A DNA stretch of 64,000 nt, taken from the NCBI GenBank assembly GCA_040776905.1, contig JAXGZQ010000004.1, positions 13,667 through 77,666 of the forward strand, given 5' to 3'. This document shows positions 39,196 to 58,051 of this stretch, piece after piece. This DNA comes from Clostridia bacterium (GTDB lineage: Bacteria; Bacillota; Clostridia; Saccharofermentanales; UBA5734). Position numbers and translations under genes: made by a program. The notes beneath the pieces were generated by a model. That model was not told the origin of the DNA, searched no databases, and saw only the letters and a list, made by a program, of their open reading frames with translations. The stretch's first letter is position 1, and each line of letters begins with the position of its first letter.

Positions 39196-39302
39196 TCACT
39201 TGAACAACGGCTGAATCACCCGGGCTTTGCGCGCGATCAAAACATCACAATAAGACTCATGGAAAAGGGCTCCGGTATTTGATTGAAATGAGGACTGTCA
39301 AT

Positions 39303-40427: not shown

Positions 40428-41422
40428 AACTGTACGCGGTGTTGGTCATCGCGGTCGCGCTGCTGCTGTCCAGCTGCGGAGCGCCATCTGTGGAAACGAC
40501 TGAAACGTCTGTTGCCAGGCAGCCAGCAGAACCATCACCTGAAATCATGGAGACAACCGCAGGCGAAATAGAGCCGGTTGTTACCGCGAAACGAGACTAT
40601 TCAATCATGCTGAAACGAGACATCTTTGTCCTGATGATGGCTTATCCGGACCATGTGACCGGAGCTGAACAGGCCGACAATCAAGTCTGGCTGGTCATGA
40701 AATCCGGCCAGCGTATTCTCTACGATGACCAGAAAGAGAAATCGGATGATGAAAAGCTGGTCGACGCGGATCTTCAGGATGCACTTGAGACGCACTATCC
40801 GTTAGACGAACTCAACACTCTCATGGATCCCGGAATGGATCCGGGCCGGGTCAGGGCCTATCCACTGTTTGATGAAATCTATGGCCATTCGCAGGACACG
40901 ATCTCAAAAAAACTGGTCCCGGTCGACTTCGGGAATGAACATCTGCCGTTCACCCGGGAAGCCGGCGCAGCCGCAGCGCTTGCGTCTGCTGCAGCGGGTG
41001 CGGCCGATCTGATCTTCGATCAGCCGGACATCGCGGAATTCCTTTATCCGACCAGCGGAACATTTAATTACCGGGTTATCGCCGGAACGAACCGGCTGAG
41101 TCCCCATGCCTATGGCATCGCCATCGACCTCAAGAGCAGTGCGGATGGCTACTGGCGCTGGGCCGAGCCTGATGCCGGCGAAGAACTCATCCGGCACTAT
41201 CCCGCGGATCTTGTTCGCCTGTTCGAAAAACACGGCTTCATCTGGGGCGGTAAATGGCATCATTTCGATATTTTCCATTTTGAATACCGCCCGGAGTTGA
41301 TCCTCAAAGCGACGTATTTCTCAACAAAGATTGATCCAGCCCGACCTTGGCATGACGGTGTCGACACCGATAATGAAACCATTCGTAAAGTGATCAAACA
41401 GATTGACAAGAGCCTTGGTTGA
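40424..41422 (+). CDS. M15-family (VanY-like) metallopeptidase lipoprotein
   Basis: Lipobox LLLSSCG, plus HAYGIAIDL and GGKWHHFDIFHFEY metal-ligand motifs. There is an ATGA overlap with the GTPase stop. Confidence 0.75.
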   Translation: MKLYAVLVIAVALLLSSCGAPSVETTETSVARQPAEPSPEIMETTAGEIEPVVTAKRDYSIMLKRDIFVLMMAYPDHVTGAEQADNQVWLVMKSGQRILYDDQKEKSDDEKLVDADLQDALETHYPLDELNTLMDPGMDPGRVRAYPLFDEIYGHSQDTISKKLVPVDFGNEHLPFTREAGAAAALASAAAGAADLIFDQPDIAEFLYPTSGTFNYRVIAGTNRLSPHAYGIAIDLKSSADGYWRWAEPDAGEELIRHYPADLVRLFEKHGFIWGGKWHHFDIFHFEYRPELILKATYFSTKIDPARPWHDGVDTDNETIRKVIKQIDKSLG

Positions 41423-41487: not shown

Positions 41488-43473
41488 TCAATGGGATTTG
41501 AGCTGTGGTTTCTTTACTCTCTCACCCAATACCCATGCGAAACAACAAATCGCCGCAGCCGCTGCCAGCAGCAGCCATCCGATCACGAGTCCAAAAGGCC
41601 GTTCATCGTATGGCTCTCCCGTAACCGGAATCTCCGGGTTGTCTGGGAGATGATCCGTTCTGACAGTCAGTCCTTCACTGGCCAGGGATGCCAGTGCGAC
41701 AGGAGTTTCTGCCAGGCGGACATAAAAGGTATACACTGTATCCGGTTCCAGACCGGTAAATTCAGGACTGGCCTGCCACTGCCCCTCTCCGTTCCGATAG
41801 TCCGCACCGGGGATCGTCGTCAGAGTCACCGATGCTGCGGTTTTGCCAGCCACAGTTGGCGGTGCCGGTGCTTCTGCTGCTGGCGGGGTGACAATAGGTT
41901 TTGCCAAAACAGAAAGTCCAGCCGATGCCGTTTGCCCACCTACGGCATAGCTGACGATGGTTCGACCCGCTGTGAGTCCTGTAAACAGGTAGCCTTCCCT
42001 TGACAAAACAGTGTGGTCATACGTCCATGTCCCGCCTGCAATATTGGGGGTGACCGTTATTTGTCCACCGGTCGTTATCTCCCCTTCTGAAGGAAGAATC
42101 GCAAGAGCCAGCACCTCATTGATCGTTACAACAGACGATGTACTGATACCATTTACAGAATAGGTGATCGTCGACAGACCTTTTTTCAGCGCCGTAAAGA
42201 CAGCAGAACCTGAAAACGAACCAGTGAAATATTCACTGTCCCACTGCCATGTTCCGCCAGTCGGCAGGGGTTTGAACGTCAGATTTTCGCCCACAACGAT
42301 TACGTTCGCTGAAGGCATCCCCGTGACTACGGTCGTATTGATGATATTCAGTGAAATAAACGGATCAACGCCGTTGGAGAAGTCCAGCTCCAAATCGTGC
42401 TCCCCCAATGGCTGACCGAAGAGATATTCTGCAGATAGTGCCAGGCTGTCATTTGATAAGATGTAATCCGTTCCTGCCGACAGTGCGGTCGTGCCGTTGT
42501 AGATATCCAGCAGGGTCGCGCTGTACGGTTTGATGGCCAGAACAATATCCGTTCCGCCGTTCTTGTCGAAAGTAGCTGAAGTGGGTGTTGCTTCGGGATG
42601 GTTTTTCAGGTAAACGCGGGTGCCGATGCCAGAAAAAATAAGGTAGTCAGCTAAGTCACCTGTTCCGATCCCGTCATAGTCATCTAAAGATTTTTCTTTT
42701 CCCTCTACAACAATGACAACAGGTGCAGTGATGATGCCATCAACGATGATCGTTTCGTTATAAGCACCATTCACACCGGTTCCAGAGGCGTTGATATTGC
42801 CCCTGATGATCACGGACGAACTTTCATCCGAGTAGACACCGTTGCCGGTTTCTGCGACGACATTGCCATTTACAGTAATACGTGCGCTCTTCAAGGCACT
42901 CACACCGTTATGTTTGGAAAGAACATCACCACCAATGACAATCGCCGCACGATCACCAGACAAAACACCTGTGGAATTGGCACCGGTCGATACGGCATTT
43001 CCTACGACAGTGATGCTGCTTCCGGTGCCAAGGGCAGAACACGCGTACAAGGGAGAAATGGCACTCGATACAACAGCAGCGCTCCCACGAACAGAAACAC
43101 CAAAGGTGGTGCCCGAAACGTTGAGACTGCCCGCTCCGGCAATATCAACCGAGCTGCCGCCCTCAACGCTCAGACCGATCCCATCAACCGCCATGTTATT
43201 GATATTCACCGTAAATCCGTTCAGATCAAAGGTAACGGATCGGCCATCATCGATGTTGATCCTGCCGTCATAGTCTATGTTGTTGAGAATTTTAATGGTC
43301 TTGCTTTCGCCACTGCCAACCATGGCAAGCGCTTCTGTGAGCGTTCCGTACTGGAGGACATCCATTTCACACGCATATCCTGATGCCATCGCAGCAGTGG
43401 GAGCAATACATGATATCAGCAAAAGAAAGAGCAGTGATGTCAGTATTTTTTCAACATGGTGCAAATACTTCAA
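41488..43473 (-). CDS. Large cell-surface protein (beta-helix, Ig-like and FN3-like regions, C-terminal membrane anchor or sorting-like signal)
   Basis: Signal peptide KILTSLLFLLLISCIAPTAAMA, Gly/Ser/Asn-rich beta-helix-like repeats, and a C-terminal IPVTGE followed by a hydrophobic stretch and KKPQLKSH. The start is uncertain: only TTG candidates (43473 or 43575), and no clear RBS. Confidence 0.6.
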   Translation of the reverse strand: MKYLHHVEKILTSLLFLLLISCIAPTAAMASGYACEMDVLQYGTLTEALAMVGSGESKTIKILNNIDYDGRINIDDGRSVTFDLNGFTVNINNMAVDGIGLSVEGGSSVDIAGAGSLNVSGTTFGVSVRGSAAVVSSAISPLYACSALGTGSSITVVGNAVSTGANSTGVLSGDRAAIVIGGDVLSKHNGVSALKSARITVNGNVVAETGNGVYSDESSSVIIRGNINASGTGVNGAYNETIIVDGIITAPVVIVVEGKEKSLDDYDGIGTGDLADYLIFSGIGTRVYLKNHPEATPTSATFDKNGGTDIVLAIKPYSATLLDIYNGTTALSAGTDYILSNDSLALSAEYLFGQPLGEHDLELDFSNGVDPFISLNIINTTVVTGMPSANVIVVGENLTFKPLPTGGTWQWDSEYFTGSFSGSAVFTALKKGLSTITYSVNGISTSSVVTINEVLALAILPSEGEITTGGQITVTPNIAGGTWTYDHTVLSREGYLFTGLTAGRTIVSYAVGGQTASAGLSVLAKPIVTPPAAEAPAPPTVAGKTAASVTLTTIPGADYRNGEGQWQASPEFTGLEPDTVYTFYVRLAETPVALASLASEGLTVRTDHLPDNPEIPVTGEPYDERPFGLVIGWLLLAAAAAICCFAWVLGERVKKPQLKSH

Positions 43474-43823
43474 TTTGCTGCAAACACCCGTATGATGACG
43501 ATGATTCGGTTCGGATGTCCAGGTCAGATTGAAACCGATGCTGCCAAACGTTCGTATGTTCCCTCCCCAAAACAAGAAAACCGACCCAATGGCCGGTTAC
43601 GCGGATTGCTCTTGCCTGATTCAAGCGTCCAGATGAAGTCAGACCGTCTTCGCATACATCACTGATTCATATCACTTCAGTATAAACACATTTTAGGCCA
43701 TAACAAGAGCTTGAAGCATAATCATCAGTCATTTTTCAGGGTTTCAGTCGTTAATTACAGGAAAAGGACGGACGCAGCCGAGCGCATCCATGCCGGGGGC
43801 ATTGCTGTGAATCCAACTGGAGG

Positions 43824-43868
43824 CCACAATACAAAAGGCTCCCACAAGGGGAGCCTTTTGTATTGTGT
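43824..43868. terminator. Long bidirectional terminator hairpin at the island border
   Basis: CCACAATACAAAAGGCTCCC-ACAA-GGGGAGCCTTTTGTATTGTG. The GC core stem is flanked by T-runs in both orientations. Confidence 0.7.
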
Positions 43869-44039
43869 ATCTGCACGACGCGTTGGATACAATTTCACGA
43901 TTTGCCTTGGGTGTGTGCACTTTTGCACGATTACTGATTATGACAAATAATATAATATTATTAACATATATCCGATTTTTAAAATATTCTTCTGTTCTTA
44001 TAGCCTGACATTGATGCGTCTAGTCAATAATTTGAGATA

Positions 44040-44771
44040 TTACCAATCTTTCCACGCGTAGTAATATTTTATACCGCCTTGTTTTCCTTGATTGCTAACA
44101 ACAACAAAAATCACCATTTTTTGATTGCCAGAACCTTTTGGCGCAGCAATTGACACTTCTTTATTTGCCTGGCCTATTATAATCTTTCCGTTATTGATTG
44201 TTGCAGAGCAAGTGCCTTCACCATTGATGTCCCGCAATGCCTGATTGGTTGCTGATCCTAATGGTGTGTTTTCCGAACCCAGATAAGCATAGACATTAAC
44301 ACCGCTAAAATTGGTCCATTTCCGCTCGAATCTTTTTATGGCAGCAGATAAATCGAGTCGGATTGTATGACCGGCAAAATACTCTTTTTCAGGTGAAGAC
44401 CAACTGCCATAAGTGTCGATCGTTTCGACGCCACCGGTTCCTGTCCGAACCATGTTGAGACTAATCGAATTCTTGCTTGATGAAAATCCATATTCAATTA
44501 GATCCTTTTGGTCACCTATCGTTTGATTCTGAGGAACGATAATTTGCACATCATATTGTTCCCAATAGCCATCCTGGGCATTCTGAGTTGTCGTCGGTTC
44601 TGCAGTTGTTAAGGCATTTGTGTTTGTGGCTGCTTGGGTTAAATCTGAATTGTCTGTAGTTGTTGTATTCTTATCCGCTCCTAATAGTCCCATCATGCCA
44701 AACAAGCTAGTGCAACCAGATAGATTGAACACCAATACAATAAATACCAACATGACTACTGATTTTTTCAT
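44040..44771 (-). CDS. Lipoprotein whose domain is paralogous to the ectodomain of the 45058-47085 protein
   Basis: ATG 44771 sits behind GGAGG. Lipobox FNLSGC and a Thr/Asn-rich linker. The C-terminal ...VSIAAPKGSGNQKMVIFVVV...GGIKYYYAWKD parallels ...KITAIAPEGKRGDRIALRLK...GTDYIYELKD. Confidence 0.6.
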   Translation of the reverse strand: MKKSVVMLVFIVLVFNLSGCTSLFGMMGLLGADKNTTTTDNSDLTQAATNTNALTTAEPTTTQNAQDGYWEQYDVQIIVPQNQTIGDQKDLIEYGFSSSKNSISLNMVRTGTGGVETIDTYGSWSSPEKEYFAGHTIRLDLSAAIKRFERKWTNFSGVNVYAYLGSENTPLGSATNQALRDINGEGTCSATINNGKIIIGQANKEVSIAAPKGSGNQKMVIFVVVSNQGKQGGIKYYYAWKDW

Positions 44772-44806
44772 AGCTTTAAACCTCCTTCCATAATCGGTGT
44801 TTTCTT

Positions 44807-45043
44807 TCACAATTTTCGAGCAGCTAATTTGCTGCGTACTGCATTGAGCTGATTCTTCTGTTTTTCGGCCTCTTTCATTTCTTGTGTTAATTGTTCAATT
44901 ATTCTGGCTGAGTCAAACTTTGTTTTGATATTCTCAAAGGTTTTTTCGGCTTTCGCCACAGGCTGCGCCCAGGGATCATCAGAAAAATCAGCTATTGCCA
45001 GTTTATTCTCCAATTGCCTGTTTAGTCCAAATATTTCGAGCAT
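44807..45043 (-). CDS. Small coiled-coil protein (78 aa)
   Basis: AGGAG RBS and a K/E/Q-rich helical sequence. Its stop overlaps the possible GTG start of the next ORF. Confidence 0.5.
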   Translation of the reverse strand: MLEIFGLNRQLENKLAIADFSDDPWAQPVAKAEKTFENIKTKFDSARIIEQLTQEMKEAEKQKNQLNAVRSKLAARKL

Positions 45044-45057
45044 AATTTTAACACTCC

Positions 45058-47085
45058 TTATTTAGCGTTGAGTCTGTTTTCCAGCTGCTTGTTGTACCAG
45101 TCGTTGTACCGACCTAATTCACTTCTAAATTGTTCCGGACCAGCATTCTGAATACTGCCATCCGGTTTCTTGATCAGGTTCTGACCATCTGGTGTACTTT
45201 GAAAAACTGTTCCGTCAGGCATGCTGACAACAGCTGAGCCATCGGGTGCAACCTGTGCTGAACGACCGTCTGGCAACTGCATATTTTCAGTGCCATCCGG
45301 GTTTTGCACAACAACAACCCCATCTTTCGTTCTGAAATCCATTGTTCCATCCGCATGATGAGTCATTGAAGCTTTATCGTTTTCGATTTTACAATAGCCA
45401 TCACTCTGATAAGTGCCTCTCATACCGTTCTCTTTGTCATCAAAACTGCCATTGCCATCTGCGTCCTTTTTCCAATAGGAATCATCTGCCATTTTGGCAT
45501 CCAATTCACCGGTCTGTGCGTTCCATTTGATGTAACTGCCATCAGGCTTTTGAAACTCACCATCACCGGTTTTGATATTACCTGAAAAAGTTGTTCCGTC
45601 ATCACCTTTGAAATTCACGCGGCCATCTGCGAATTCCTCGTATGAAACACCATTTGCCCCCACCATTTTCCGATTGCCGTAACTGTCTTCACGGTACCAG
45701 GATCCATCGTCATGCTGACCTTCTTTCGATCCATCGGGCTTGATGGTCCATGTGACATTTTCGATTCGAATCGTGCCTTCAATAGTTTGCCTTTCGACTT
45801 GGGTTCGTTCCAAACGTCCATCGGAATTAAGTCTGGTCACATCGACTGTTATTGTTTTTACGACCACACTTCCGCCATGAGGAGATGTATAAACATACGC
45901 ATCCGGATCCTCAGGATGTTTTGTTATAACCATACCGTTCGGCGTAACGACTGACAACACATCCATCTCCTCATTTCGAATGATTGTGATGCCATCGACT
46001 TTCTTTTCTGCAATTGTACCATCTGATTGCCATCCCCAGATTGAGCCATCTGGAGTTTTCATTGCCTCCAGGTCTCCATTCGGGAAATGTGTGGCGATTT
46101 CGCCTGTTGGATAAGTGATCTGAATATTGCCGTTTGGCAATTTCGATAAATGTTCTCCCTCCCGACCGACAACATATTCTGGATATCCTGGTATTTTGGA
46201 CTTTTCGTAAGCCGGATCCTTGTCGTCATCAGTCGGGACTGCATAATCAGCATCATTAGCTGGTGTTCCGCCTATCGCTGTGCCCAAAATTGCAGCTAAA
46301 GCAGCGGCGATGGAAACCGCGATGGTTGCCAAAGGCCCGGCGTGCGTCCAAGGATCTGTTTTATTCCCGTCTGTCTCGCTGTCTGTGGGTTCGCCTGGCT
46401 GTGTTTCTTTTCCCGGGCCTGTAATCACAGGGATATTATCTTTTAGCTCATAGATATAGTCCGTTCCAATCGCTAAAGACGCTATATTGAATTTTAACCG
46501 CAGTGCGATTCGGTCACCTCGCTTCCCCTCCGGCGCTATAGCCGTGATTTTAGTCTCGACAGAAGAGATCCCCTTCTGTGCATCAAGCGTTTGTTGCCAG
46601 CTTTCCGCGCTGCCTGTATTGTCTCTAAACGAGATATCGCTTGAGCTCGACCCGGTAAATGACTGCTCGGCATCGACAAATTTTGCATATCCATGAGCAA
46701 GGCCCGTCCACCCCGACAAGGTGTTTTCTGTTTCCGTCATAAAAACATCAAGCGTTACCGTTTCGCCGACATCAATGGTTTGGGGAGGTTCGTCAAACTC
46801 GCACCGCGCACCATAGGTTTCGCCGTGAACATATTTTTCATCGAAAACTTCTCTCGACTCCCCGTCATAAACCCTTCTAACGCTGTAGCTTCCACGACTG
46901 TATTCAAAGGTAAATGTGAATTCAGAATTCTCTTCGGTACTTTTTATAACCGACTGCTCGTAATCTTTAACATCCACAAGCACCCATGCATAATCACTCT
47001 TTTGGCTCCCAGCGGCCACGATTGTCGATGGTATTAGCAGGAAAACAAGTATAAAAATAAGGGAAAAAGCAAATTTACTCTTCAT
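45058..47085 (-). CDS. Type I membrane protein: signal peptide, ectodomain, one TM segment, and a cytoplasmic PDG-repeat (Tcp10_C/G-box- or MORN-like) domain
   Basis: ATG 47085 (MKSKFAFSLIFILVFLL) overlaps the upstream stop (ATGA). The TM segment is PLATIAVSIAAALAAILGTAIGG. The C-terminal approximately 370 aa contain many P/x-DG-S/T repeats (PDGSIWGW, KPDGSKEG, KPDGSYIKW, NPDGTENMQLPDGRSAQVAPDGSAVVSMPDGTVFQSTPDGQNLIKKPDGS). Confidence 0.65.
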   Translation of the reverse strand: MKSKFAFSLIFILVFLLIPSTIVAAGSQKSDYAWVLVDVKDYEQSVIKSTEENSEFTFTFEYSRGSYSVRRVYDGESREVFDEKYVHGETYGARCEFDEPPQTIDVGETVTLDVFMTETENTLSGWTGLAHGYAKFVDAEQSFTGSSSSDISFRDNTGSAESWQQTLDAQKGISSVETKITAIAPEGKRGDRIALRLKFNIASLAIGTDYIYELKDNIPVITGPGKETQPGEPTDSETDGNKTDPWTHAGPLATIAVSIAAALAAILGTAIGGTPANDADYAVPTDDDKDPAYEKSKIPGYPEYVVGREGEHLSKLPNGNIQITYPTGEIATHFPNGDLEAMKTPDGSIWGWQSDGTIAEKKVDGITIIRNEEMDVLSVVTPNGMVITKHPEDPDAYVYTSPHGGSVVVKTITVDVTRLNSDGRLERTQVERQTIEGTIRIENVTWTIKPDGSKEGQHDDGSWYREDSYGNRKMVGANGVSYEEFADGRVNFKGDDGTTFSGNIKTGDGEFQKPDGSYIKWNAQTGELDAKMADDSYWKKDADGNGSFDDKENGMRGTYQSDGYCKIENDKASMTHHADGTMDFRTKDGVVVVQNPDGTENMQLPDGRSAQVAPDGSAVVSMPDGTVFQSTPDGQNLIKKPDGSIQNAGPEQFRSELGRYNDWYNKQLENRLNAK

Positions 47086-47969
47086 GCTGTTGCCACCGCC
47101 TTTCCAGGTTTGATAACAATTTGAAAAACCAGTCCGATCAGTATCAGCAAACCACCAATCATATAAGGTATATATGCTACCAAAGTGTGATTTGGCCACG
47201 GCACAGCAGACAAAGCCACACCAGAAGCGCTTCCTATTGCATAGCCTGTCATTATTCTGCTAACAATCTTCTGAGATGCTGCTCCTGTCCGTGATTTGTT
47301 TCGAACTAACAAAAGCAATAACCCCCATAGAAAGCCTCCCTTTCTTATGATCGAACGTATCGCCAATACCAGTCCTACCACACCCGCCATGCTGTTGATG
47401 ATATTCGCGTTACCGGTGATAAAATTGTAAATGACAAGCGCTAAGCCTAAACCGATAACCAACGGAGATACTGCGCTTGCTTTGTCATCATCCGGGCCTC
47501 GACCGGTGTTGCTGCCCGTTCTGCGAAACGGTTTTTTGCTGCTAAACAGCGGTAAAATCAGTGCGCTGATGAAATAAGCGTAGATTGCTTTGCCGATCAC
47601 TCCGCCAATTGCTCCCCATATGCCGCCGAACATGCCGCCCTGAGCGAATGTTAACAGAGAAAGTATTTTAACTGGCAATGGATTCACACCAAACACCGGC
47701 AAAATCGCGAGAATTAGCCAGGACACACTCAGGACGGCAACGGGAATCAGCTGCTTGGGATTTTTGAAAAGTTGTTGCAAAGAACTCTTTCCGGCTCTTA
47801 ACCGTTCGTGTAAATAGCCAGACAACCCTAGTTCTTTTTGATTATGTTTTACTTCAGACTGGTTATCCTTAGGCGGCAACATAACCGCCTGAGTTCTCAT
47901 ACCGCAGGCGTTACAGAACTGATCGTCTGGTTTAAGGGATGCACCGCAGTTTGTGCAAAATTGACCCAT
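47082..47969 (-). CDS. N-terminal zinc-ribbon, polytopic membrane protein
   Basis: GGAGGG RBS. The N-terminus is MGQFCTNCGASLKPDDQFCNACG, followed by about six hydrophobic segments rich in GxxxG. Confidence 0.65.
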   Translation of the reverse strand: MGQFCTNCGASLKPDDQFCNACGMRTQAVMLPPKDNQSEVKHNQKELGLSGYLHERLRAGKSSLQQLFKNPKQLIPVAVLSVSWLILAILPVFGVNPLPVKILSLLTFAQGGMFGGIWGAIGGVIGKAIYAYFISALILPLFSSKKPFRRTGSNTGRGPDDDKASAVSPLVIGLGLALVIYNFITGNANIINSMAGVVGLVLAIRSIIRKGGFLWGLLLLLVRNKSRTGAASQKIVSRIMTGYAIGSASGVALSAVPWPNHTLVAYIPYMIGGLLILIGLVFQIVIKPGKAVATA

Positions 47970-48017
47970 CTATCAAACCCTCCTCTGACATGCTAAATAG
48001 CCGACGCGATCATTGAA

Positions 48018-49229
48018 TTATTTGAACAAAGGCAACCGGCAGGATTTGCAGGTATCACTTGTGATATCATTTATTGTTCCGCAAATATTGCAAAACAGCA
48101 CGGAATCTCTGGACTTATCATATTTCTCATATGTACTGAAAGCCATATGACAGCGGACCCGGTCGCCAATATTGAGGTAGTCATATAGCGCACGGTTGTC
48201 AGTATAGTTGAGTTTATGCTTCTTTCCGTTGTCTTCTGTCAGAACAAGGGTATAAACCGTCCTGTATCGAGTGTGGCTGTCATCTTGGTCGTGTTCAACT
48301 TTCTGTCTGTGTTTCTTATCGGTTACAGTGCCATCCCATGTGCCTGATTTCATACGAGATATCCGCACAAGGCCGATCAACAGCATGAGTAACCCTAAGC
48401 CGATGCCAATAATGATTGCCTCGTTCAATGGCAGATCATCCGTAAGATTACCGGCTATAAAGAAACCGACGGGAAAAGCAATCGTGAGGAACACGGTGAA
48501 GATCCAGGCAGCTTTCTTGTTCTTTGCTGCCCTTGCCAGGACGGCCGGTTCAAGATGTCGATTCGTCCAGCCGACAAGGGATTGCTGGCGGTCCTGCCGA
48601 AAATCAGATACCTGCTGTCGGACATCTGATTGTACAGCATTTCCGCATGCTGAGCAGAAACGAGTGCTTTCTGAAATCGCAGCCCCACATTTTGAACAAA
48701 ACTTACCCATGTTACCCTCCGTATGATATCGTTCCTCGATCGAGTCATCATAATCAGTTATTGGCTGAAAATTTAGATCTCCAGTATTGGCTGTTTTTCG
48801 TTGTTTGTTGCTTTTCCCTTGTCTGCTATTCATCACGACCAAACAAAACGCACCAGCTGCAAACATGACCAATTGCCCGAGGTTAGGTCTTGCAGTATCC
48901 TCCAGTGTATTGATGAATGGAGCGAAAGAGAAATACCGCACCTTATTTTCGACCGATACGTTTGTTGCGCTGCCAAGCTTCGTGAGATGGCCTTCATAGA
49001 TTAGGCCACTATCTGCTGTAAATGTATAATCAACATACCAGGTATAGCGATTTTCGTTGACAGCACCCTGCCTTTCACCACCATATCGGCGTGTAGATAT
49101 TGAAGCTGTAGCATGTAAGCCAACAATATACAGCATCAGGTTACTTAGCGCCATTATCATCAGCGCGAGCCCGACAGCCGATATAATGACGCGCCAGAAT
49201 ATGCTTTTCTGATGTGCTGCGCTCATCAA
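48018..49229 (-). CDS. Membrane protein with a DUF3592-like N-terminal module and two zinc ribbons
   Basis: The N-terminal module is TM, beta region, TM. The internal ribbon is FCSKCGAAISESTRFCSACG. Two more TM segments follow, then a soluble domain ending in FCNICGTINDITSDTCKSCR. Confidence 0.6.
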   Translation of the reverse strand: MMSAAHQKSIFWRVIISAVGLALMIMALSNLMLYIVGLHATASISTRRYGGERQGAVNENRYTWYVDYTFTADSGLIYEGHLTKLGSATNVSVENKVRYFSFAPFINTLEDTARPNLGQLVMFAAGAFCLVVMNSRQGKSNKQRKTANTGDLNFQPITDYDDSIEERYHTEGNMGKFCSKCGAAISESTRFCSACGNAVQSDVRQQVSDFRQDRQQSLVGWTNRHLEPAVLARAAKNKKAAWIFTVFLTIAFPVGFFIAGNLTDDLPLNEAIIIGIGLGLLMLLIGLVRISRMKSGTWDGTVTDKKHRQKVEHDQDDSHTRYRTVYTLVLTEDNGKKHKLNYTDNRALYDYLNIGDRVRCHMAFSTYEKYDKSRDSVLFCNICGTINDITSDTCKSCRLPLFK

Positions 49230-49903
49230 TTAGCCGTCGCATAGATATTTCTCATGAAGACAAACTGGCCTTCATCAAAAGTAAGCGTTATGGATCCAAA
49301 TGGATCTACCTGTGTTTGAGAAATCAAAGATCCCTCTTTATTTTCCAAGTCACTCATGACAGCTAAATGTGTCCAGCTTTTGCTCATCCCGCTATAGGTT
49401 TTTATCAAATAAGATCCAGCCGGTATATCTTGACCAACTTCGTAGAGGCCACTTAAATAGATACCGTCCTCGTTCTTTATAGGAACTACATCCTCAGCCT
49501 TGTATATAATGAGGTTTTCTGAAAGCAGAATCTGGCCGCGTTTAAGCGTCACTTTTACACAAGCGTCGAATTCAGATCCTTCGATTAGCGAACCTTTGCT
49601 TTCACTATCCTCGTTATAATTGAAAAGCTCGTATTTCCCCTTTGTTCCACATTCAAATGCCACTAAAACATAATCACCTGCTGGAAGATCTGGCCCAATC
49701 ACATCATCAAAATAGTTTTGCCTATACCAAACAGTGATATCAGGTGCAGGAAGTTGTGTTTCAATTGGTGCGGTCGTATTCGTATTATTGATATTCGCTG
49801 AGGTTGTAGTGGTCGTTGTACTCGATTTTGGAGCGGCACAGGATGAAAGTAAAAACAGCAAGGCAGTTAATATTGTTATAAAATATAACGATTGACGCTT
49901 CAT
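49226..49903 (-). CDS. Lipoprotein with two tandem (D/G)xPAGxY beta-domains
   Basis: Lipobox LLSSCA and a Thr/Asn linker. The duplicated motifs are GPDLPAGDYVLV and GQDIPAGSYLIK. There is an ATGA overlap with the next gene. Confidence 0.6.
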   Translation of the reverse strand: MKRQSLYFITILTALLFLLSSCAAPKSSTTTTTTSANINNTNTTAPIETQLPAPDITVWYRQNYFDDVIGPDLPAGDYVLVAFECGTKGKYELFNYNEDSESKGSLIEGSEFDACVKVTLKRGQILLSENLIIYKAEDVVPIKNEDGIYLSGLYEVGQDIPAGSYLIKTYSGMSKSWTHLAVMSDLENKEGSLISQTQVDPFGSITLTFDEGQFVFMRNIYATAN

Positions 49904-50185
49904 AAATTGTCCAGCCTTTCTGAAGTAGCTTTATATATTTTACCAAAAACAAGCAACTGCATAAAGATGCTTTCAAATCATCATAATGCATATTGGGAAT
50001 TGTCGATCACATGTTTTATAATGATGCTAAATACCGTGCAGCAGTTTATTTGAAAGTGGGTGACGTAAGCAATATGACAAGAAGAATTTCTGATGATTTT
50101 GACGATTATGAAAATTATTGAAGGATAGATTCATGCCTGATGTTTTAGGTTAACCCACCCTCAATAACCGGTCAATAAAACCTCG

Positions 50186-50287
50186 TTGGTGTCAAATGAA
50201 CAGACAAACCAGACAGCAGAACGAATTTATGGTAAGTGTGGAAGCCCGATATCAACTGGTAGCCAAATCTGTGCGAAATACGGATAA
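50186..50287 (+). other. Decayed zinc-ribbon coding remnant
   Basis: My translation reads ...NEQTNQTAERIYGKCGSPISTGSQICAKYG*. It follows the FCxxCG-x10-FCxxCG pattern of the neighbouring genes, but Tyr replaces the first and fourth Cys (TAT/TAC instead of TGT/TGC). Confidence 0.35.
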
Positions 50288-50305
50288 AAAGTAGGAGACC
50301 AACAT

Positions 50306-51640
50306 ATGCGAGTGAAGACTGTTTTATTCATCACCATTATTTCAACCATTTTGCTTTTTTGTACACCCGTTCAAGCCTTTAATTCCTGGGACATTCCCGG
50401 GACCTATGCGGTCACGAGTGAAAATCCGGCAACCTTTGTCATTGCTTTTGTCGAAGATCACAAGACAGGCAGCAATATGACGGTTACGATGATTCGTGAA
50501 GACAGCGATGGATCTGTTAGCGAAAGCCCGCCGCTTGCGTTCTATTATGATAACGTGAAAGGTGAAGCATATCATTTGCAACAAGTTGGCGATAAGCTTT
50601 TCGATGACTGGATGTATATCAAGTTTGATTTCTCTGGATATGCCATGCGCGGCGAGGGCTATATGCGCTGGGGAGAAAAGGGTGAAGAAAAAATCCCCTT
50701 TACAATGGTCAGGACGGATGGGGAAGCCAATAAAAAATGGCCTTCAGCAGGACTCATTGAAGTCCCGAGAGACGAAAAAGGGAACCCTATTGATTGTGGC
50801 CACAGAATTAGCGATATATCAGGAGAAGTGCGTATCCGGCCGGGGGATGACGTGCTGGCCTGGGGTATGGCAGAATTGGATATGACTCTCTATCACGGCG
50901 ATGTCATGCGTTTGGAAAGAGGGGCGGAGGTTCACTTCATAACGAACGACTTAGTGCCTTTTGTAATCAGAGGTCCGGCGGAGATCATCGTATCTTTAGG
51001 TCCTGGTGAAGAAGAAAACAAACTGCTGCTATTGGCTGGTAAGGTGATCAGAAACGTGAAAAAAATGGTAATGGAAGGAACCTTGGAATTTGAAATGAGC
51101 CAGGGAGTTGCCGGAATCAAAGGCACAACCTTTGTCATGGAAGAAGACGGAACGACATCTACCCTTAAAGTGCTGGAAGGAACCGTTTCCTTTAAACCAA
51201 CCAACGGAGAGGAACTCATTCTGACCGACGGACAGATGGTATCTGCTACGAATGGCCTAGCCGGTGAAATCACCAAGTTTTCTATAAATGACGAGCTTTC
51301 CAATTGGAGCGAAAAGACCAGGTTGATCTTTGGGCAGATTCTTCAAGAAGCCGGACACGTTTCGGAGAATGAACCTGAAGATATAACTTCTGATAAAGGA
51401 AATGGTAATCGTTCCACAATCATGATTTATATGTTCGTGATTGTCATCTTGCTCATTGCGGGTGTAATGACTGGATTGATTGTTTCCAGAAAAAAGAGAA
51501 CAAAGCCACAAGCTGCAGTGGCTAATGGGTCAAGATTGCGGACAATGCATAATCCTTTGCCTAGATTCTGTAGTCACTGTGGCAGCCAGATTAGCGCTGA
51601 GAATGCTTTTTGTGGAACTTGTGGTCAAAGGATTCATTGA
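50306..51640 (+). CDS. FecR-domain ectoprotein with a C-terminal TM segment and cytoplasmic zinc ribbon
   Basis: AGGAG RBS and a signal peptide. The FecR-like blocks are GEVRIRPGDDVLAWGMAEL...GDVMRLERGAEVHF and GIKGTTFVMEEDGTTSTLKVLEGTVSF. The TM segment is IMIYMFVIVILLIAGVMTGLIV, followed by RFCSHCGSQISAENAFCGTCG. Confidence 0.7.
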   Translation: MRVKTVLFITIISTILLFCTPVQAFNSWDIPGTYAVTSENPATFVIAFVEDHKTGSNMTVTMIREDSDGSVSESPPLAFYYDNVKGEAYHLQQVGDKLFDDWMYIKFDFSGYAMRGEGYMRWGEKGEEKIPFTMVRTDGEANKKWPSAGLIEVPRDEKGNPIDCGHRISDISGEVRIRPGDDVLAWGMAELDMTLYHGDVMRLERGAEVHFITNDLVPFVIRGPAEIIVSLGPGEEENKLLLLAGKVIRNVKKMVMEGTLEFEMSQGVAGIKGTTFVMEEDGTTSTLKVLEGTVSFKPTNGEELILTDGQMVSATNGLAGEITKFSINDELSNWSEKTRLIFGQILQEAGHVSENEPEDITSDKGNGNRSTIMIYMFVIVILLIAGVMTGLIVSRKKRTKPQAAVANGSRLRTMHNPLPRFCSHCGSQISAENAFCGTCGQRIH

Positions 51641-51880
51641 GGACAATGAATAACAAAAGCTCCACCATCATATGGGGTCTGGAATTATTCTGAATCAGAA
51701 TTGGATTGCATAAACTTGCAGTTCATCTGTTGAAGCGCCTTTGTTGGGTTGATAAAGCAGGCAAGGTCAACGTGCTACTAAGTATTTGTATACTTGTTCC
51801 TTACGAGGTCGTCAAAATCGTACCTTGACTTCTGCACGCCTTCGAGGGATTACTACAATAAAAAATCGAAGGGTGATGTA

Positions 51881-53101
51881 ATGCCAGCCAATCATGTGCA
51901 AATAAAGACGGTTAAGGAGCTTAGGCGTAAACCACGATCTGTTTCGGATTCCCGTCTAATCCGAGTCTGTGCCTATATCCGAGTCTCGACTGGACATGAA
52001 AAGCAACAGGACTCTTTACATAGCCAAGCTGAATATTATGAACAAAGATTATCCATAAACCCGCAATACCAGTTTGTCGGCATCTTTTCGGACTCGGGCA
52101 TCTCAGGATCCAAGGAGAATCGACCTGCCTTTCAGAAGATGATCGAGAAGGCAAAGGCAGGCAAGATCGATCTCATCTACACCAAGTCCATCTCCCGGTT
52201 TGCACGAAACACCCTGATTCTCTTGAAAACAGTCCGTGAGCTCAAGTCAATCGGTGTGGGGATTATATTCGAAGAGCAAAATATCAACACGTTAAACGCT
52301 GAAGGCGAGCTGATGTTGTCCGTGCTGGCCGGTATTGCCGAGGAGGAACGCCGGTCAGTACGTACCGATATACAATGGTCTATCCAGCGCAGATACCAGC
52401 GTGGTGAAGTCGTGGTTGATACCAATCGCCTGTTGGGTTATGGCAAGGATGAATCAAAGAACCTGATCATTATTCCAGAGGAAGCTGAGATCATCCGTCA
52501 AATATTCCAGCTATATCTGTCAGGCGTTTCCGCTTACAAAATAGCCAAGATCCTGACTGATCAGAATAATCCATACTGCCAGGCCAAGGTCTGGAATTCG
52601 ACTCGCATTACCAGCATCCTCTCCAACGAAAAATACGCCGGCTCTTTCCTGATGCAAAAAAGTTATGTCAATGAAAATGGCAAACAGGTCAAAAACCATG
52701 GCGAGCGTGCGAAATATTGGATCGAGCATGCACATGAAGCAATTATCTCCCAGTCAGATTGGGACCAGGCTCAACAGATCAGGAAAGAACGTGCCCGCAA
52801 GACTTATCCCTACACCAGTTTGCTGCGTTGTTCCTATTGCGGCAGTACGCTGATTCGATATGTTCATCAGAAGCGTTGGGTTAGTTGGATCTGCGGTCGA
52901 TCTCTGAGTCAGGGAATATCTTCCTGCATCGGCTCCCGAATTTCCGAAACATGCTTGGTTGCCTTAACCAAAGAAAAGCCCATAACAGAACCCGTGATCG
53001 TCGAGGAGGTACGACAAGATGAAAACCGCAAGCAAACCCGCCAAAAAGATTACCGTTTTATCCCTGTCACCGCCAACCCAGCCAGTAAACCCGGAAGTTA
53101 G
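51881..53101 (+). CDS. Large serine recombinase (short form, 406 aa)
   Basis: RVCAYIRVST catalytic Ser block, YTKSISRFARNT, a recombinase domain, and the Zn-ribbon CSYCGSTL...WICG. I place the start at ATG 51881. Confidence 0.9.
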   Translation: MPANHVQIKTVKELRRKPRSVSDSRLIRVCAYIRVSTGHEKQQDSLHSQAEYYEQRLSINPQYQFVGIFSDSGISGSKENRPAFQKMIEKAKAGKIDLIYTKSISRFARNTLILLKTVRELKSIGVGIIFEEQNINTLNAEGELMLSVLAGIAEEERRSVRTDIQWSIQRRYQRGEVVVDTNRLLGYGKDESKNLIIIPEEAEIIRQIFQLYLSGVSAYKIAKILTDQNNPYCQAKVWNSTRITSILSNEKYAGSFLMQKSYVNENGKQVKNHGERAKYWIEHAHEAIISQSDWDQAQQIRKERARKTYPYTSLLRCSYCGSTLIRYVHQKRWVSWICGRSLSQGISSCIGSRISETCLVALTKEKPITEPVIVEEVRQDENRKQTRQKDYRFIPVTANPASKPGS

Positions 53102-54443
53102 GAGAAAGCTGAGGGTGGCAGCCTACTGCCGGGTATCCAGTTCCAGTGATGAGCAGCTATCCAGTTACCAGGCGCAGCTCCGAAATTACGACCAATATAT
53201 CCGGTCCAGACCGGATTTTTCCCTGACAGGCATATTCGCTGATGAAGGCATATCTGGCACAGACCTAAAAAAGCGAACTGCCTTTAATGAAATGATGCAA
53301 AAGGCCAGAGAAGGCCAGATTGATCTGATCATAACCAAGAGCATCTCCCGATTTGGTCGAAACACACTGGATTGCCTGAAATGCATACGCGAACTAAAGC
53401 AGTTGAATGTGGACGTGTTTTTTGAAAAGGAAAACGTCCATAGTAATAATAAAGATGGAGAAATTCTGCTGACCTTGATTTCTGCGGTTGCTCAAAATGA
53501 AAGCATGAACCAGTCTGAGAATGTAAAATGGGGTATCCGTCGAAAGTACGAACGCAAGTCCGTCAGGAGTGTCCCATCTGGTAAATTCCTGGGCTACCGA
53601 AAGGACCAGCAAGGAAACCTCATCATCAACGAACAACAGGCAGAGACTGTCAAGCGGATCTATCAGGCATTTCTACACGGGCTTGGAACCTTCCAGATCG
53701 CGACTATTCTGACAAAAGAGAATGTACCAATGGCCTATGGCGGGAAAGAGTGGTGTGCAAGCCATATTCTGAAAGTACTGATGAATGAAAAATACCAAGG
53801 TGACACCCGATTCCAGAAGACTTTCAATACGGATTACCTGACCAAACACCGGGCGAAAAACCTGGGCCAATTACCTCAACCTTATCTCAAGGATTCCCAT
53901 CCGGCCATTATCGACCGTAAGACCTGGTCGCTTGTTCAGCTGGAGCTAGTACGCCAGAAGCAGTTTGTTGATTGTCATAGCATCGATAAATTTCATCATC
54001 ATAGTGAACAGTGCCCACTTTCGGGAAAAATCTTCTGCCAGACTTGTGGTCATCCGTTCGCGTTAAGGCAGTCGTTTCGAAAGCGTAATTATGGTCAGAA
54101 ATACTGGGTTTGCCGAGAATATAGAGCGGGCCGATATGGACCTGTTGGGCCAGACTGTTGCAGTAATGGTCATCGCGTCCCTGCTGAAGACATCGATCGT
54201 GTCATTATAAGCAGCTGGAACGAGCTGGTTGATCGCAGGAGAGACTTACTACGATCAACGGGCAAAACAGGTGATCAACTGACAGATTATCGGATCATGG
54301 ATTTGAAACGTCAGGTTAGAAAATATGGACACTTAAGGGTCATGGCATATGACCTATTGATCCGCGTACTTGATCATGTTGAAATCAGAGCAGACGGAAA
54401 GCTTTCAGTCATTTTTCTGGCCGGTATCCGATTGGACCGGTGA
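53019..54443 (+). CDS. Large serine recombinase (474 aa, TnpX/TndX-like C-terminus)
   Basis: GAGGAGG at 53003-53009 precedes ATG 53019. Motifs are RVAAYCRVSS and ITKSISRFGRNT, with the Zn-ribbon CQTCGHPF...WVCREY. It overlaps the upstream gene by 83 nt. Confidence 0.9.
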   Translation: MKTASKPAKKITVLSLSPPTQPVNPEVRRKLRVAAYCRVSSSSDEQLSSYQAQLRNYDQYIRSRPDFSLTGIFADEGISGTDLKKRTAFNEMMQKAREGQIDLIITKSISRFGRNTLDCLKCIRELKQLNVDVFFEKENVHSNNKDGEILLTLISAVAQNESMNQSENVKWGIRRKYERKSVRSVPSGKFLGYRKDQQGNLIINEQQAETVKRIYQAFLHGLGTFQIATILTKENVPMAYGGKEWCASHILKVLMNEKYQGDTRFQKTFNTDYLTKHRAKNLGQLPQPYLKDSHPAIIDRKTWSLVQLELVRQKQFVDCHSIDKFHHHSEQCPLSGKIFCQTCGHPFALRQSFRKRNYGQKYWVCREYRAGRYGPVGPDCCSNGHRVPAEDIDRVIISSWNELVDRRRDLLRSTGKTGDQLTDYRIMDLKRQVRKYGHLRVMAYDLLIRVLDHVEIRADGKLSVIFLAGIRLDR

Positions 54444-54453
54444 GCACAAGCTA

Positions 54454-57356: not shown

Positions 57357-57419
57357 GAGTTCGCCTCCTTCCATACACATGAACGCTCTAAAACCCCTTT
57401 GTATCAACGAATTTTAAGC

Positions 57420-57982: not shown

Positions 57983-58051
57983 GCAGGGTCCCCCAATCAA
58001 AGGATTGATTTCATCACCATCCACAGGACAGAAAGGACTGGATTGAGTACC

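What the first reader, a model, noticed from the sequence alone, without database searches (positions are those of the whole stretch)
44040..51640. AT-rich island encodes a seven-protein envelope module (zinc ribbons, lipoproteins, FecR ectodomain, PDG repeats) with no recognisable enzyme or known system
SEEN:
- A tightly packed six-gene minus-strand operon spans 49903 to 44040, with ATGA/GTGA overlaps at 49226, 47082 and 44807. A divergent gene lies at 50306-51640.
- All sit in DNA that is much more AT-rich than the flanks, between a strong terminator and a recombinase pair.
- Every product is predicted to be membrane-bound or lipid-anchored.
- The same cytoplasmic motif, FCxxCG-x10-FCxxCG, appears four times in three proteins: 47082-47969 (N-terminus), 48018-49229 (internal and C-terminal), and 50306-51640 (C-terminal).
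- There are two lipoproteins, a FecR-type sensor ectodomain, a DUF3592-like module and a PDG-repeat cytoplasmic domain.
- I could not recognise any kinase, ATPase, nuclease, protease, transporter signature or DNA-binding domain.

INFERENCE:
- This looks like a self-contained trans-envelope sensing or scaffolding complex carried on a mobile island.
- Its location beside recombinases and a prophage fits an accessory role such as phage exclusion, surface modification sensing or envelope-stress handling. The function is unknown.
Basis: partly seen in the sequence, partly recalled or inferred. Interest (0 to 1): 0.7.

Follow-up and report, generated by a model that had tools for sequence, protein, structure and literature searches.

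The report
Enzyme-less membrane-protein operon on mobile island
A low-GC, recombinase-flanked island in a Clostridia chromosome carries a tight operon of membrane proteins with no enzymes. Its conserved core is a gene pair that is often fused into one protein elsewhere and belongs to a large, undescribed family; what it does is still unknown.

Summary
The genes, their tight spacing, the low GC, four zinc ribbons, two lipoproteins, a FecR ectodomain and PDG repeats are all present. No enzyme or known defence family was found. There are three corrections. The 78-aa product is soluble. "DUF3592-like" has no HMM support. The seven genes are not a conserved unit.

The invariant core is G4 (zinc ribbon plus glycine-rich polytopic domain) translationally coupled to G3 (signal peptide, swappable ectodomain, TM, cytoplasmic beta-hairpin repeats resembling the CPAP TCP/G-box).
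- In 22 of 22 relatives the G3-position gene starts on a 4-nt overlap with the G4 stop.
- 48 of the 150 best family representatives are single fused proteins.
- The G4 domain has 332 clusters at E<=1e-10 and no Pfam model.

G2 follows only PDG-type G3. G5, itself a fusion of two independent modules, and FecR-type G7 recur nearby in shuffled orders. G1 and G6 are orphans.

Relatives sit on an ICE, on serine-recombinase elements and also in plain chromosomal contexts, usually behind a membrane-embedded LuxR regulator.

Function is inferred only: a membrane-spanning receptor or scaffold assembly acting on the envelope. Phage exclusion has no direct support.

The parts
43824..43867 (-). Perfect 19-bp-stem palindrome downstream of G1. 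It is the likely end of the operon transcript and could act in either direction. No U-tract follows the stem.
   Evidence: Read from the sequence. RNA fold dG -33.6 kcal/mol, z -6.95. The consensus terminator scan did not list it.
44040..44810 (-). G1, a 256-aa lipoprotein with lipobox LSGC. It is an orphan with no relatives in any fetched locus. GC 40.5%.
44807..45043 (-). G2, a 78-aa soluble helical protein. It lies downstream of G3 in the loci whose contig reaches past the G3 stop.
   Evidence: No hydrophobic segment. BLAST-detected after G3 in L007, L010 and L046. A small ORF of 76-82 aa occupies the same position in L011 and L012 but gave no tblastn hit to G2. A remnant follows G5 in L008/L009. 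dN/dS 0.16 against L007.
45058..47085 (-). G3, 675 aa: signal peptide, ectodomain (residues ~30-240), HAGPL-TM (253-271), cytoplasmic beta-hairpin PDG repeats (~310-650), terminal helix.
   Evidence: Tcp10_C 36.7 bits. Cake/CPAP sequence hits. AF2 pLDDT 70-93 for residues 310-675. Foldseek to the CPAP TCP domain at E 2.8e-9. The ectodomain is replaced in P0064-P0067 while the cytoplasmic part stays 57-69% identical.
47082..47969 (-). G4, 295 aa: N-terminal zinc ribbon, KNPKQxxP motif, and a polytopic domain carrying the glycine-zipper motif FAQGGxxGGxxGAxGGxxGK. It is translationally coupled to G3.
48018..49229 (-). G5, 403 aa, a fusion of two modules. G5N is TM, small beta domain, TM (residues 1-145). 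G5C is zinc ribbon, TM hairpin, small beta-barrel, second zinc ribbon (170-403). The probable start is the ATG at 49226.
   Evidence: AF2 pLDDT 77.5. The halves are separate genes in L038, L042, L043 and L013. About 38 of 60 homologues are the C-terminal half alone.
49226..49903 (-). G6, a 225-aa lipoprotein with lipobox LSSC. Its C-terminal domain matches phage family phrog_23726. Only a 69-nt remnant survives in L007.
49904..50305 (.). Divergent control region. It holds promoter-like sites on both strands around 49977-50022. It also holds a decayed zinc-ribbon relic (RIYGKCGSPISTGSQICAKYG*) at about 50228-50287 (+).
   Evidence: Window 49893-49985 is conserved directly upstream of G5 in L007.
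50306..51640 (+). G7, 444 aa: signal peptide, N-terminal ectodomain plus FecR domain, TM (376-394), C-terminal cytoplasmic zinc ribbon.
   Evidence: Homologues at 65-66% identity sit beside G5N-like genes in L038-L042.
51794..54443 (+). Two overlapping large serine recombinase genes (435 and 474 aa), the likely mobility genes of the island. An N-terminal remnant of the first survives next to the cassette in L007.

Best explanation
SHOWN
- The stretch is horizontally acquired cargo of a small low-GC element. It is bounded by a palindrome on the left and two large serine recombinase genes on the right, and it lies against the end of a prophage in a Clostridia chromosome.
- It is a composite, not one seven-part machine.
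- The core is G4 plus G3, effectively one membrane protein encoded in two translationally coupled genes. G4 contributes a cytoplasmic zinc ribbon and a glycine-zipper polytopic domain. G3 crosses out through its signal peptide, displays an exchangeable ectodomain, crosses back, and ends in a long cytoplasmic beta-hairpin repeat array with a TCP/G-box-like fold.
- G2 is a small soluble helical protein found only with this PDG type of G3.
- G5 fuses two independent modules that recur near G4/G3 in many gene orders.
- G7 is a FecR-ectodomain, zinc-ribbon protein that recurs next to G5N-type genes.
- G1 and G6 are lineage-specific lipoproteins.

INFERRED
- The proteins assemble in the cytoplasmic membrane into a non-enzymatic receptor or scaffold.
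- Variable extracytoplasmic domains (G3 ectodomain, FecR, the G5N beta domain, the lipoproteins) bind or sense something in the wall or at the outer membrane face.
- The G4 helices couple this to a cytoplasmic platform made of the G3 sheet, G2 and the zinc ribbons, which recruits or sequesters a partner.
- The likeliest physiological field is envelope surveillance or protection. In most relatives this is inducible through a membrane-embedded LuxR regulator; here the module has no such regulator.
For: ACQUIRED AND MOBILE
- GC is 43.8% against 56.4% for the backbone.
- Four large serine recombinases lie at 51794-57407 and prophage lysis/tail genes at 58-64 kb.
- L007 keeps a recombinase remnant beside the cassette.

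GENES ARE REAL
- dN/dS is 0.16-0.25 for G5, G4, G3 and G2 against L007.

G4+G3 ACT AS ONE UNIT
- G4-G3-G2 is found in L007, L010, L011, L012 and L046.
- In 22 of 22 loci with an unfused G4 relative, the next gene starts on an ATGA/GTGA overlap. All 16 complete products there have a signal peptide and one later TM; six products are cut by the contig end.
- 48 of the 150 best representatives are 726-1679 aa with the G4 domain N-terminal. One of them, P0117, carries Tcp10_C repeats. A. noterae has a 1576-aa fusion.

FAMILY SIZE
- There are 332 clusters at E<=1e-10.
- No Pfam domain beyond zinc ribbons or Tcp10_C was found in 48 fusions.

G5 LINKAGE
- G5 or one of its halves co-occurs with G4 in seven different architectures: window/L007, L011, L013, L015, L038, L043 and L060.

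G7 LINKAGE
- L038-L042.

ECTODOMAIN EXCHANGE
- The G3 cytoplasmic part is 57-69% identical where the ectodomain is unrelated.
- The P0064-type ectodomain is 34% identical (E 6e-24) to the N-terminus of a FecR protein in L038.

FOLD
-.

REGULATOR CONTEXT AND TRANSFER
- The order membrane LuxR, p176, G4, G3-like is seen in more than 10 loci.
- An ICE copy is 99.93% identical between Robinsoniella and Anaerotignum.
Against: - No experiment and no homology to any characterised protein supports the functional part.
- G5 is solitary or paired with YkuD at 54-79% identity.
- G1 and G6 are unique to this locus, so a seven-protein complex is unproven.
- Window G3 and the commoner L015-type partner share only position, architecture and the HAGPL-TM motif. 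Pairwise BLAST gives E 0.33.
- The G3 ectodomain model has low confidence.
- Sequence similarity to propeller-derived Cake designs means a closed propeller, rather than an open sheet, is not excluded.
- Several relatives are chromosomal, next to glycogen and sugar genes, so mobility is not intrinsic to the module.
- Co-transcription is inferred from spacing only.
Confidence: 0.45

Rival explanations
1. It is an anti-phage or entry-exclusion system. Ectodomains or lipoproteins detect or block an incoming phage or conjugative DNA. The G4 glycine-zipper domain then opens a pore (abortive infection), or the complex blocks injection.
For: - The module lies on a mobile island beside a prophage and on an ICE in L015.
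- Ectodomains are exchanged between relatives.
- The G6 C-terminus matches a phage protein family at E 9.7e-12.
- Glycine-zipper helices are typical of pore formers (own knowledge).
Against: - No PADLOC hit for any of the seven proteins.
- No relatives in 50,697 phage records or in IMG/VR.
- Many relatives are chromosomal, next to housekeeping genes, with a dedicated LuxR regulator.
- No nuclease, NTPase or other usual defence partner is present.
Confidence: 0.15
2. There is no joint function. The region is a patchwork of unrelated hypothetical membrane and lipoprotein genes that accumulated in a recombination hot spot. The shared zinc ribbon is only a very common Firmicute membrane-protein tag.
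For: - The seven-gene set is not conserved as a unit.
- G1, G2 and G6 have about 40% GC against about 46% for G3, G4, G5 and G7.
- G1 and G6 are orphans.
- A decayed zinc-ribbon relic lies upstream of G7.
- PF13240 occurs in very many unrelated proteins.
Against: - G4/G3 coupling is seen in 22 of 22 loci, and 48 fused representatives exist.
- G5N, G5C and FecR parts recur around G4/G3 in at least seven architectures across four orders of Clostridia.
- The core genes are under purifying selection.
Confidence: 0.15
3. It is a FecR-type anti-sigma signalling pathway. G7 senses an extracytoplasmic signal and controls a sigma factor or regulator, and the other proteins are its regulon.
For: - G7 carries a FecR domain.
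- Small sigma-70 region-4 proteins lie near the recombinases here (57572-58024) and in L038 and L042.
Against: - No ECF sigma gene is adjacent.
- G7 has a cleavable signal peptide and a C-terminal zinc ribbon instead of an N-terminal anti-sigma domain.
- G7 is absent from most G4/G3 loci, where a membrane LuxR protein is the regulator.
- The region-4 proteins travel with the recombinases, not with G7.
Confidence: 0.07
4. It is part of a secretion or conjugation apparatus, for example a VirB6/TcpH-like channel or a T7SS membrane component.
For: - In L015 the module follows the relaxase, Toprim protein and coupling protein of an ICE.
- The polytopic-plus-bitopic architecture loosely recalls TcpH or EsaA (own knowledge).
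- G4 gives a weak EssA hit at E 0.045.
Against: - No VirB4, FtsK or EssC ATPase, cell-wall hydrolase or WXG protein is present in the window or in most relatives.
- The EssA hit is far below its cutoff (13.6 bits against 32.45).
- Chromosomal copies lack any transfer genes.
Confidence: 0.05

Closest known systems
B. subtilis PspA-YdjGHI (SamGHI) envelope-stress complex (PMC8581546)
   Same: - It is a non-enzymatic operon in which integral membrane proteins anchor a soluble cytoplasmic scaffold to the membrane under envelope stress.
- Zinc-finger motifs are present in its components. The paper reports one in YdjI, and the ydjG primer sequence encodes CPNC near the N-terminus.
- A Band_7/SPFH gene lies 1.5 kb upstream of a G5 homologue in L003-L005.
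   Different: - There is no PspA or SPFH gene in the window.
- No sequence or profile match links G1-G7 to Psp or Ydj families.
- Here the cytoplasmic scaffold is a beta-hairpin repeat array tethered by its own TM helix.
- The comparison is an analogy for how it may work, not a membership claim.
FecR / sigma-regulator family (PF04773), e.g. FecR-FecI, LipL45
   Same: G7 has a FecR-type extracytoplasmic domain (E 6.5e-5; LipL45 model E 1.5e-6).
   Different: - G7 has no N-terminal anti-sigma domain.
- No ECF sigma gene and no TonB-dependent partner is present, and the host has a single membrane.
- A zinc ribbon sits at the cytoplasmic C-terminus.
CPAP/SAS-4 TCP (G-box) domain, PF07202
   Same: The G3 cytoplasmic repeats score above the Pfam cutoff (36.7 against 36). 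They hit CPAP chains at E 1.8e-8, and the AF2 model matches 4bxr at Foldseek E 2.8e-9.
   Different: - The eukaryotic domain is a centriole protein of about 20 strands.
- G3 has about 35 strands, is membrane-tethered, and is bacterial.
- Equal or stronger sequence hits go to Cake designs derived from a propeller template, so the quaternary form is uncertain.
Zinc-ribbon-anchored Firmicute membrane proteins such as S. aureus TcaA
   Same: G5 shares the layout of a PF13240 zinc ribbon followed by TM segments, and gives a weak TcaA model hit (E 0.027).
   Different: The score of 13.3 bits is far below the 550-bit cutoff. The similarity is limited to the ribbon and there is no TcaA ectodomain.
Lipoprotein exclusion factors of prophages and ICEs (Ltp of phage TP-J34, YddJ of ICEBs1; own knowledge)
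   Same: G1 and G6 are small lipoproteins encoded by a mobile element. The G6 C-terminus matches a phage protein family.
   Different: There is no sequence relation to Ltp or YddJ. phrog_23726 has no known function. G1 and G6 are not conserved with the core.

Membership tests
Zn_Ribbon_1 (PF13240) domain | CxxC-x(8-12)-CxxC ribbon scoring above the Pfam gathering cutoff (25 bits) | tested here: met
   G4 scores 29.6, the internal G5 copy 30.7 and G7 25.9 bits. The fourth copy, at the G5 C-terminus, was found by motif only.
FecR / anti-sigma signalling system | FecR domain scoring above the Pfam cutoff (24 bits) | tested here: inconclusive
   G7 scores 23.7 bits, E 6.5e-5. 42 of 46 homologues carry PF04773.
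FecR / anti-sigma signalling system | Cognate ECF sigma factor gene adjacent, and an N-terminal cytoplasmic anti-sigma domain | tested here: not met
   No sigma-70 r2/r4 ECF gene lies within 44-51.7 kb. The G7 N-terminus is a signal peptide.
TCP / G-box (PF07202 Tcp10_C) | Repeats above the Pfam cutoff and a single-layer beta-sheet fold | tested here: met
   36.7 bits against a cutoff of 36. Foldseek to 4bxr at E 2.8e-9 on a model region with pLDDT 70-93. Open sheet versus closed propeller is not resolved.
DUF3592 (PF12158) | HMM match to the family | tested here: not met
   No hit at E<=0.1 for G5 or at E<=0.01 for 31 family members. Only the TM, beta domain, TM layout is similar.
Known anti-phage defence systems (PADLOC-DB v2) | At least one component matching a defence-system model | tested here: not met
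   No family hit for any of the seven proteins at E<=0.1.
Type IV / type VII secretion | VirB4, FtsK or EssC-type ATPase and signature membrane components | tested here: not met
   No ATPase domain is present. The EssA hit scores 13.6 bits against a cutoff of 32.45.
Psp / YdjGHI envelope-stress module | PspA/IM30 or SPFH protein encoded with the membrane anchors, and homology to YdjG/YdjH | tested here: not met
   No PspA or Band_7 hit occurs in the window genes. Direct comparison with YdjG/YdjH sequences was not possible because those sequences were not on hand.
Bacterial lipoproteins | Signal peptide ending in a lipobox [LVI][ASTVI][GAS]C | tested here: met
   G1 has LSGC at residue 30 and G6 has LSSC at residue 19.
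Serine-recombinase integrative element | Large serine recombinase genes (Resolvase + Recombinase + Zn_ribbon_recom) | tested here: met
   Genes at 51794-53101 and 53019-54443 carry all three domains.
Serine-recombinase integrative element | Defined att ends, or an empty site in a related genome | tested here: inconclusive
   Only a 13-nt direct repeat (TCAGTCATTTTTC at 43725 and 54405; BLAST E 0.26) was found. No empty site was found, and the collection scans were exhausted.

The most novel reading that the evidence does not exclude
G4 plus its coupled or fused partner define an undescribed, Clostridia-wide class of modular transmembrane receptor. It has a conserved glycine-zipper membrane core, cassette-like exchangeable ectodomains that are shared even with FecR proteins, and interchangeable cytoplasmic output domains. 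The outputs seen are a TCP-like sheet here, a coiled-coil/Gly-rich domain in most relatives, and an HExxH-containing domain in L038. The class spreads between genera on ICEs and recombinase elements. It would act as a new kind of surface-recognition, exclusion or envelope-protection system.
Probability: 0.3. Interest if true: 0.75.

Novelty: categorically new. Interest (0 to 1): 0.5.

Why it matters
- The G4 domain family has at least 332 clusters at 50% identity, no Pfam model and no literature. It is common in gut and digester Clostridia, and it moves between genera on conjugative elements (99.93% identity between Robinsoniella and Anaerotignum).
- Rosetta-stone fusions and strict translational coupling give a concrete, testable protein pair.
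- The exchangeable ectodomains and the dedicated membrane LuxR regulators suggest a signal-responsive envelope function that is currently unannotated in thousands of genomes.
- It also places a long TCP/G-box-like repeat array, so far studied in centriole proteins, on the inner face of a bacterial membrane.
- If the function turns out to be exclusion or envelope protection, it would add a new class of accessory trait to Gram-positive mobile elements.

Tried and rejected
DATABASE SEARCHES THAT FOUND NOTHING USEFUL
- Pfam, NCBIfam, PADLOC and PHROGs scans of all seven proteins gave only generic domains.
- PDB sequence searches for G4 and G7 found nothing significant.
- Foldseek of the G5 model found no match at E<=0.001; only small OB-like barrels appeared.
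- Phage records and IMG/VR held no relatives, so a phage-borne origin is rejected.
- PLSDB gave one record, and it is really a 2.6-Mb replicon.
- An exact look-up of G3 found nothing on record.
- Literature searches on DUF3592, on DUF4352 with zinc ribbon, on FecR with zinc ribbon and Clostridia, and on LuxR with conjugative elements found no description of such a module.

CLAIMS TESTED AND NOT SUPPORTED
- DUF3592 membership.
- Homology between window G3 and the L015-type partner is not demonstrable by BLAST. It is treated as positional and architectural only.
- An Rfam scan of 43.4-52 kb found no RNA element inside the module.

LEFT UNRESOLVED
- Element ends could not be fixed from repeats; a 13-nt repeat is the only lead.
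- The idea that the module always rides on mobile elements is rejected, because L047 and L060 are flanked by glycogen and sugar metabolism genes.

Full report
WHAT IS AT THE COORDINATES

The six minus-strand ORFs are labelled as follows:
- G6, 49226-49903
- G5, 48018-49229
- G4, 47082-47969
- G3, 45058-47085
- G2, 44807-45043
- G1, 44040-44810

The divergent gene G7 (50306-51640) is also present as described.

The junctions are tight. G4/G3 share ATGA and G2/G1 share GTGA. The G6 stop overlaps a TTG, or by 1 nt the ATG that the closest relative uses. The remaining gaps are 48 nt and 14 nt.

GC is 43.8% for 43851-51700 against 56.4% for the first 36 kb. The low-GC tract continues through the recombinases at 45.4%.

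Downstream of G1 lies a perfect 19-bp-stem palindrome (43824-43867, dG -33.6 kcal/mol, z -6.95). It has no trailing U-tract.

To the right are two convergent pairs of large serine recombinase genes (51794-54443 on the plus strand, 54454-57407 on the minus strand). Beyond them are a small HTH protein, a holin, a LysM/NlpC lysin and a tail endopeptidase, which together mark the end of a prophage.

DOMAIN CONTENT

- Pfam finds Zn_Ribbon_1 in G4, G5 and G7, FecR in G7 (23.7 bits against a cutoff of 24), and Tcp10_C in G3 (36.7 against 36). It finds nothing for G1, G2 or G6.
- A motif scan finds exactly four CxxC-x10-CxxC ribbons in real genes. The one at the G5 C-terminus is a degenerate variant.
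- G1 and G6 carry lipoboxes. G2 has no hydrophobic segment and is soluble.
- NCBIfam, PADLOC and PHROGs add nothing functional. The only notable hit is the G6 C-terminus to phrog_23726, which has unknown function.
- DUF3592 is not matched by G5 or by 31 of its relatives.

IS THE SEVEN-GENE SET A UNIT? NO.

- G5 has 60 homologues, all in Clostridia metagenome bins. About two thirds are only the C-terminal half.
- At 78-79% identity G5 stands alone. At 54% identity it follows a YkuD transpeptidase gene.
- A contig with 92% nucleotide identity (L007) keeps G5-G4-G3-G2 only. It also holds a 69-nt remnant of G6 and an N-terminal remnant of the first recombinase, and it has no G1 or G7. L007 is therefore a decayed copy of a window-like element.
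- G3 has only seven homologues. In each context fetched, G4 precedes G3 and a small ORF follows it; that ORF is BLAST-detectably G2 in L007 and L010.
- All four core genes are under purifying selection against L007, with dN/dS of 0.16-0.25.

THE REAL CORE IS THE G4/G3 PAIR

Scans with a G4 alignment found about 30 further loci.
- In 22 of 22 loci with an unfused G4 relative, the next gene starts on a 4-nt ATGA/GTGA overlap with the G4 stop. All 16 complete products have a signal peptide and one later TM helix; six are cut by the contig end.
- An exhaustive HMMER search finds 590 clusters at 50% identity at E<=0.001 and 332 at E<=1e-10. Of the 150 best, 48 are 726-1679 aa long with the G4 domain at the N-terminus.
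- One such fusion (P0117) carries Tcp10_C repeats like the window's G3. The 1576-aa protein of Acetoanaerobium noterae is another fusion, seen by direct inspection.
- Because the two genes overlap out of frame, these fusions cannot be gene-calling artefacts.
- Apart from zinc ribbons and Tcp10_C, no Pfam domain is found in 48 fusions. This family has no curated annotation.

ACCESSORY PARTS RECUR IN SHUFFLED ORDERS

A seed-based neighbourhood survey shows that the commonest arrangement has five genes in this order:
1. a membrane-embedded LuxR/GerE regulator of about 480 aa
2. a 2-TM protein of about 176 aa
3. G4
4. a G3-like protein
5. a DUF4352 lipoprotein

G5 or one of its halves lies near G4 in seven different architectures: window/L007, L011, L013, L015, L038, L043 and L060.

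G7 homologues (65-66% identity) sit beside G5N-type genes in L038-L042. Those loci also hold a G4 relative, a 997-aa partner with an HExxH motif, a second FecR/zinc-ribbon protein and a serine recombinase.

Ectodomains are exchanged between components.
- The G3 cytoplasmic domain stays 57-69% identical where the ectodomain is unrelated.
- That alternative ectodomain is 34% identical (E 6e-24) to the N-terminus of the L038 FecR protein.

G1 and G6 have no relatives in any fetched locus or in IMG/VR.

GENOMIC CONTEXTS

- In Anaerotignum sp. MB30-C6 and Robinsoniella peoriensis the module follows the MobL relaxase, Toprim protein and coupling protein of an ICE. The two copies are 99.93% identical over 20.9 kb.
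- In L038-L042 the module lies next to a sigma-region-4 protein and a serine recombinase.
- In L047 and L060 it is flanked by glycogen and sugar-metabolism genes.
- The module is therefore accessory and often mobile, but not obligatorily so.
- No relatives occur in phage genomes or viral contigs.

STRUCTURE

- The AF2 model of G3 is confident for residues 310-675 (pLDDT 70-93). It shows short strands every 9-10 residues and a terminal helix.
- Foldseek places it with the CPAP/SAS-4 TCP (G-box) single-layer sheet at E 2.8e-9.
- Sequence searches also hit the Cake designer propellers at E 9e-26. These derive from a natural propeller template, so a closed propeller is not excluded.
- The G3 ectodomain model has low confidence.
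- The G5 model (pLDDT 77.5) shows TM, small beta domain, TM, ribbon, TM hairpin, small beta-barrel, ribbon. It has no significant PDB neighbour.
- Topology follows from the cytoplasmic ribbons and the signal peptides. The G3 ectodomain, the G5N beta domain, the G7 FecR region and the two lipoproteins face outward. The ribbons, the G5C barrel, the G3 repeat array and G2 face the cytoplasm. This is inference.

MECHANISM

Shown: G4 and G3 are two halves of one functional membrane protein. Ectodomains are swappable. No catalytic domain is detectable.

Inferred: the proteins form a non-enzymatic receptor or scaffold in the single membrane of a Clostridia cell. It would link an extracytoplasmic binding event to a cytoplasmic protein-binding platform.

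The nearest working analogy is the B. subtilis YdjG/YdjH anchor for the PspA-YdjI envelope-stress complex (PMC8581546). There is no homology to it and no PspA or SPFH gene here.

Phage or conjugation exclusion remains possible but has no positive evidence. I put about 0.85 on the structural and evolutionary statements and about 0.3 on the envelope-surveillance function.

VERDICT

The 'seven-protein self-contained system' is not.

What is there is a mobile copy of an undescribed, widespread Clostridial membrane module whose core is the G4/G3 pair. It fits no known system.

Its interest is moderate. It is a well-defined, testable, unannotated family, but nothing yet shows what it does.

Noticed in passing
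window 43585-43666 (-): A full-length but sub-threshold match to the c-di-GMP-II riboswitch (RF01786, 29.3 bits against a gathering score of 53.5, E 0.005). It sits in the 5' leader of the CBM_X2/beta-helix surface protein gene 41488-43575 (-). That placement is typical for c-di-GMP control of Clostridial surface proteins.
   Followed up: partly
window 51794-57407: Four large serine recombinase genes form two convergent, internally overlapping pairs whose stops are only 10 nt apart (54443 and 54454). This suggests two integrative elements, the island and the prophage, abutting tail to tail.
   Followed up: partly
window 43725-43737 and 54405-54417: A 13-nt direct repeat, TCAGTCATTTTTC, brackets the island plus its two recombinase genes. 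These are candidate element ends, but the match is compatible with chance (BLAST E 0.26) and no empty site was available.
   Followed up: partly
window 43853-43934 versus L007 3103-3191: An ~80-nt non-coding segment next to the palindrome is conserved in L007. There it lies on the other side of the cassette, beyond the recombinase remnant. Such a permutation would be expected if the element passes through a circular form.
   Followed up: partly
window ~50228-50287 (+): A decayed zinc-ribbon remnant (RIYGKCGSPISTGSQICAKYG*, with two of the four cysteines lost) lies just upstream of G7. It is probably the relic of another ribbon-bearing gene.
   Followed up: partly
L014 and L015 (Robinsoniella peoriensis; Anaerotignum sp. 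MB30-C6): A 20.9-kb ICE segment (relaxase, Toprim, coupling protein, membrane LuxR, G4 module) is 99.93% identical between two genera of different families. This indicates very recent horizontal transfer.
   Followed up: partly
L038 6247-9240: The G3-position partner in this element (997 aa) carries a HELAH (HExxH) motif in its cytoplasmic part, a possible metalloprotease output domain. No Pfam family was on record for it.
   Followed up: no
L003-L006 (G5 homologue at 54% identity): The G5 homologue lies 2 nt downstream of a YkuD L,D-transpeptidase gene and near a Band_7/SPFH gene and a class B PBP gene. This is a weak hint of a cell-wall connection.
   Followed up: no
window 39279-41422: A GTPase with a DUF697 domain is followed, with a start-stop overlap, by a VanY-like M15 D-Ala-D-Ala carboxypeptidase. 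The region has intermediate GC (about 0.50-0.55) just left of the island.
   Followed up: no
window 49226-49903 (G6): The lipoprotein has two copies of a short 'D(L/I)PAG(D/S)Y' motif domain. Its C-terminal part matches phage family phrog_23726 (E 9.7e-12), although no relatives were found in phage records or IMG/VR.
   Followed up: partly
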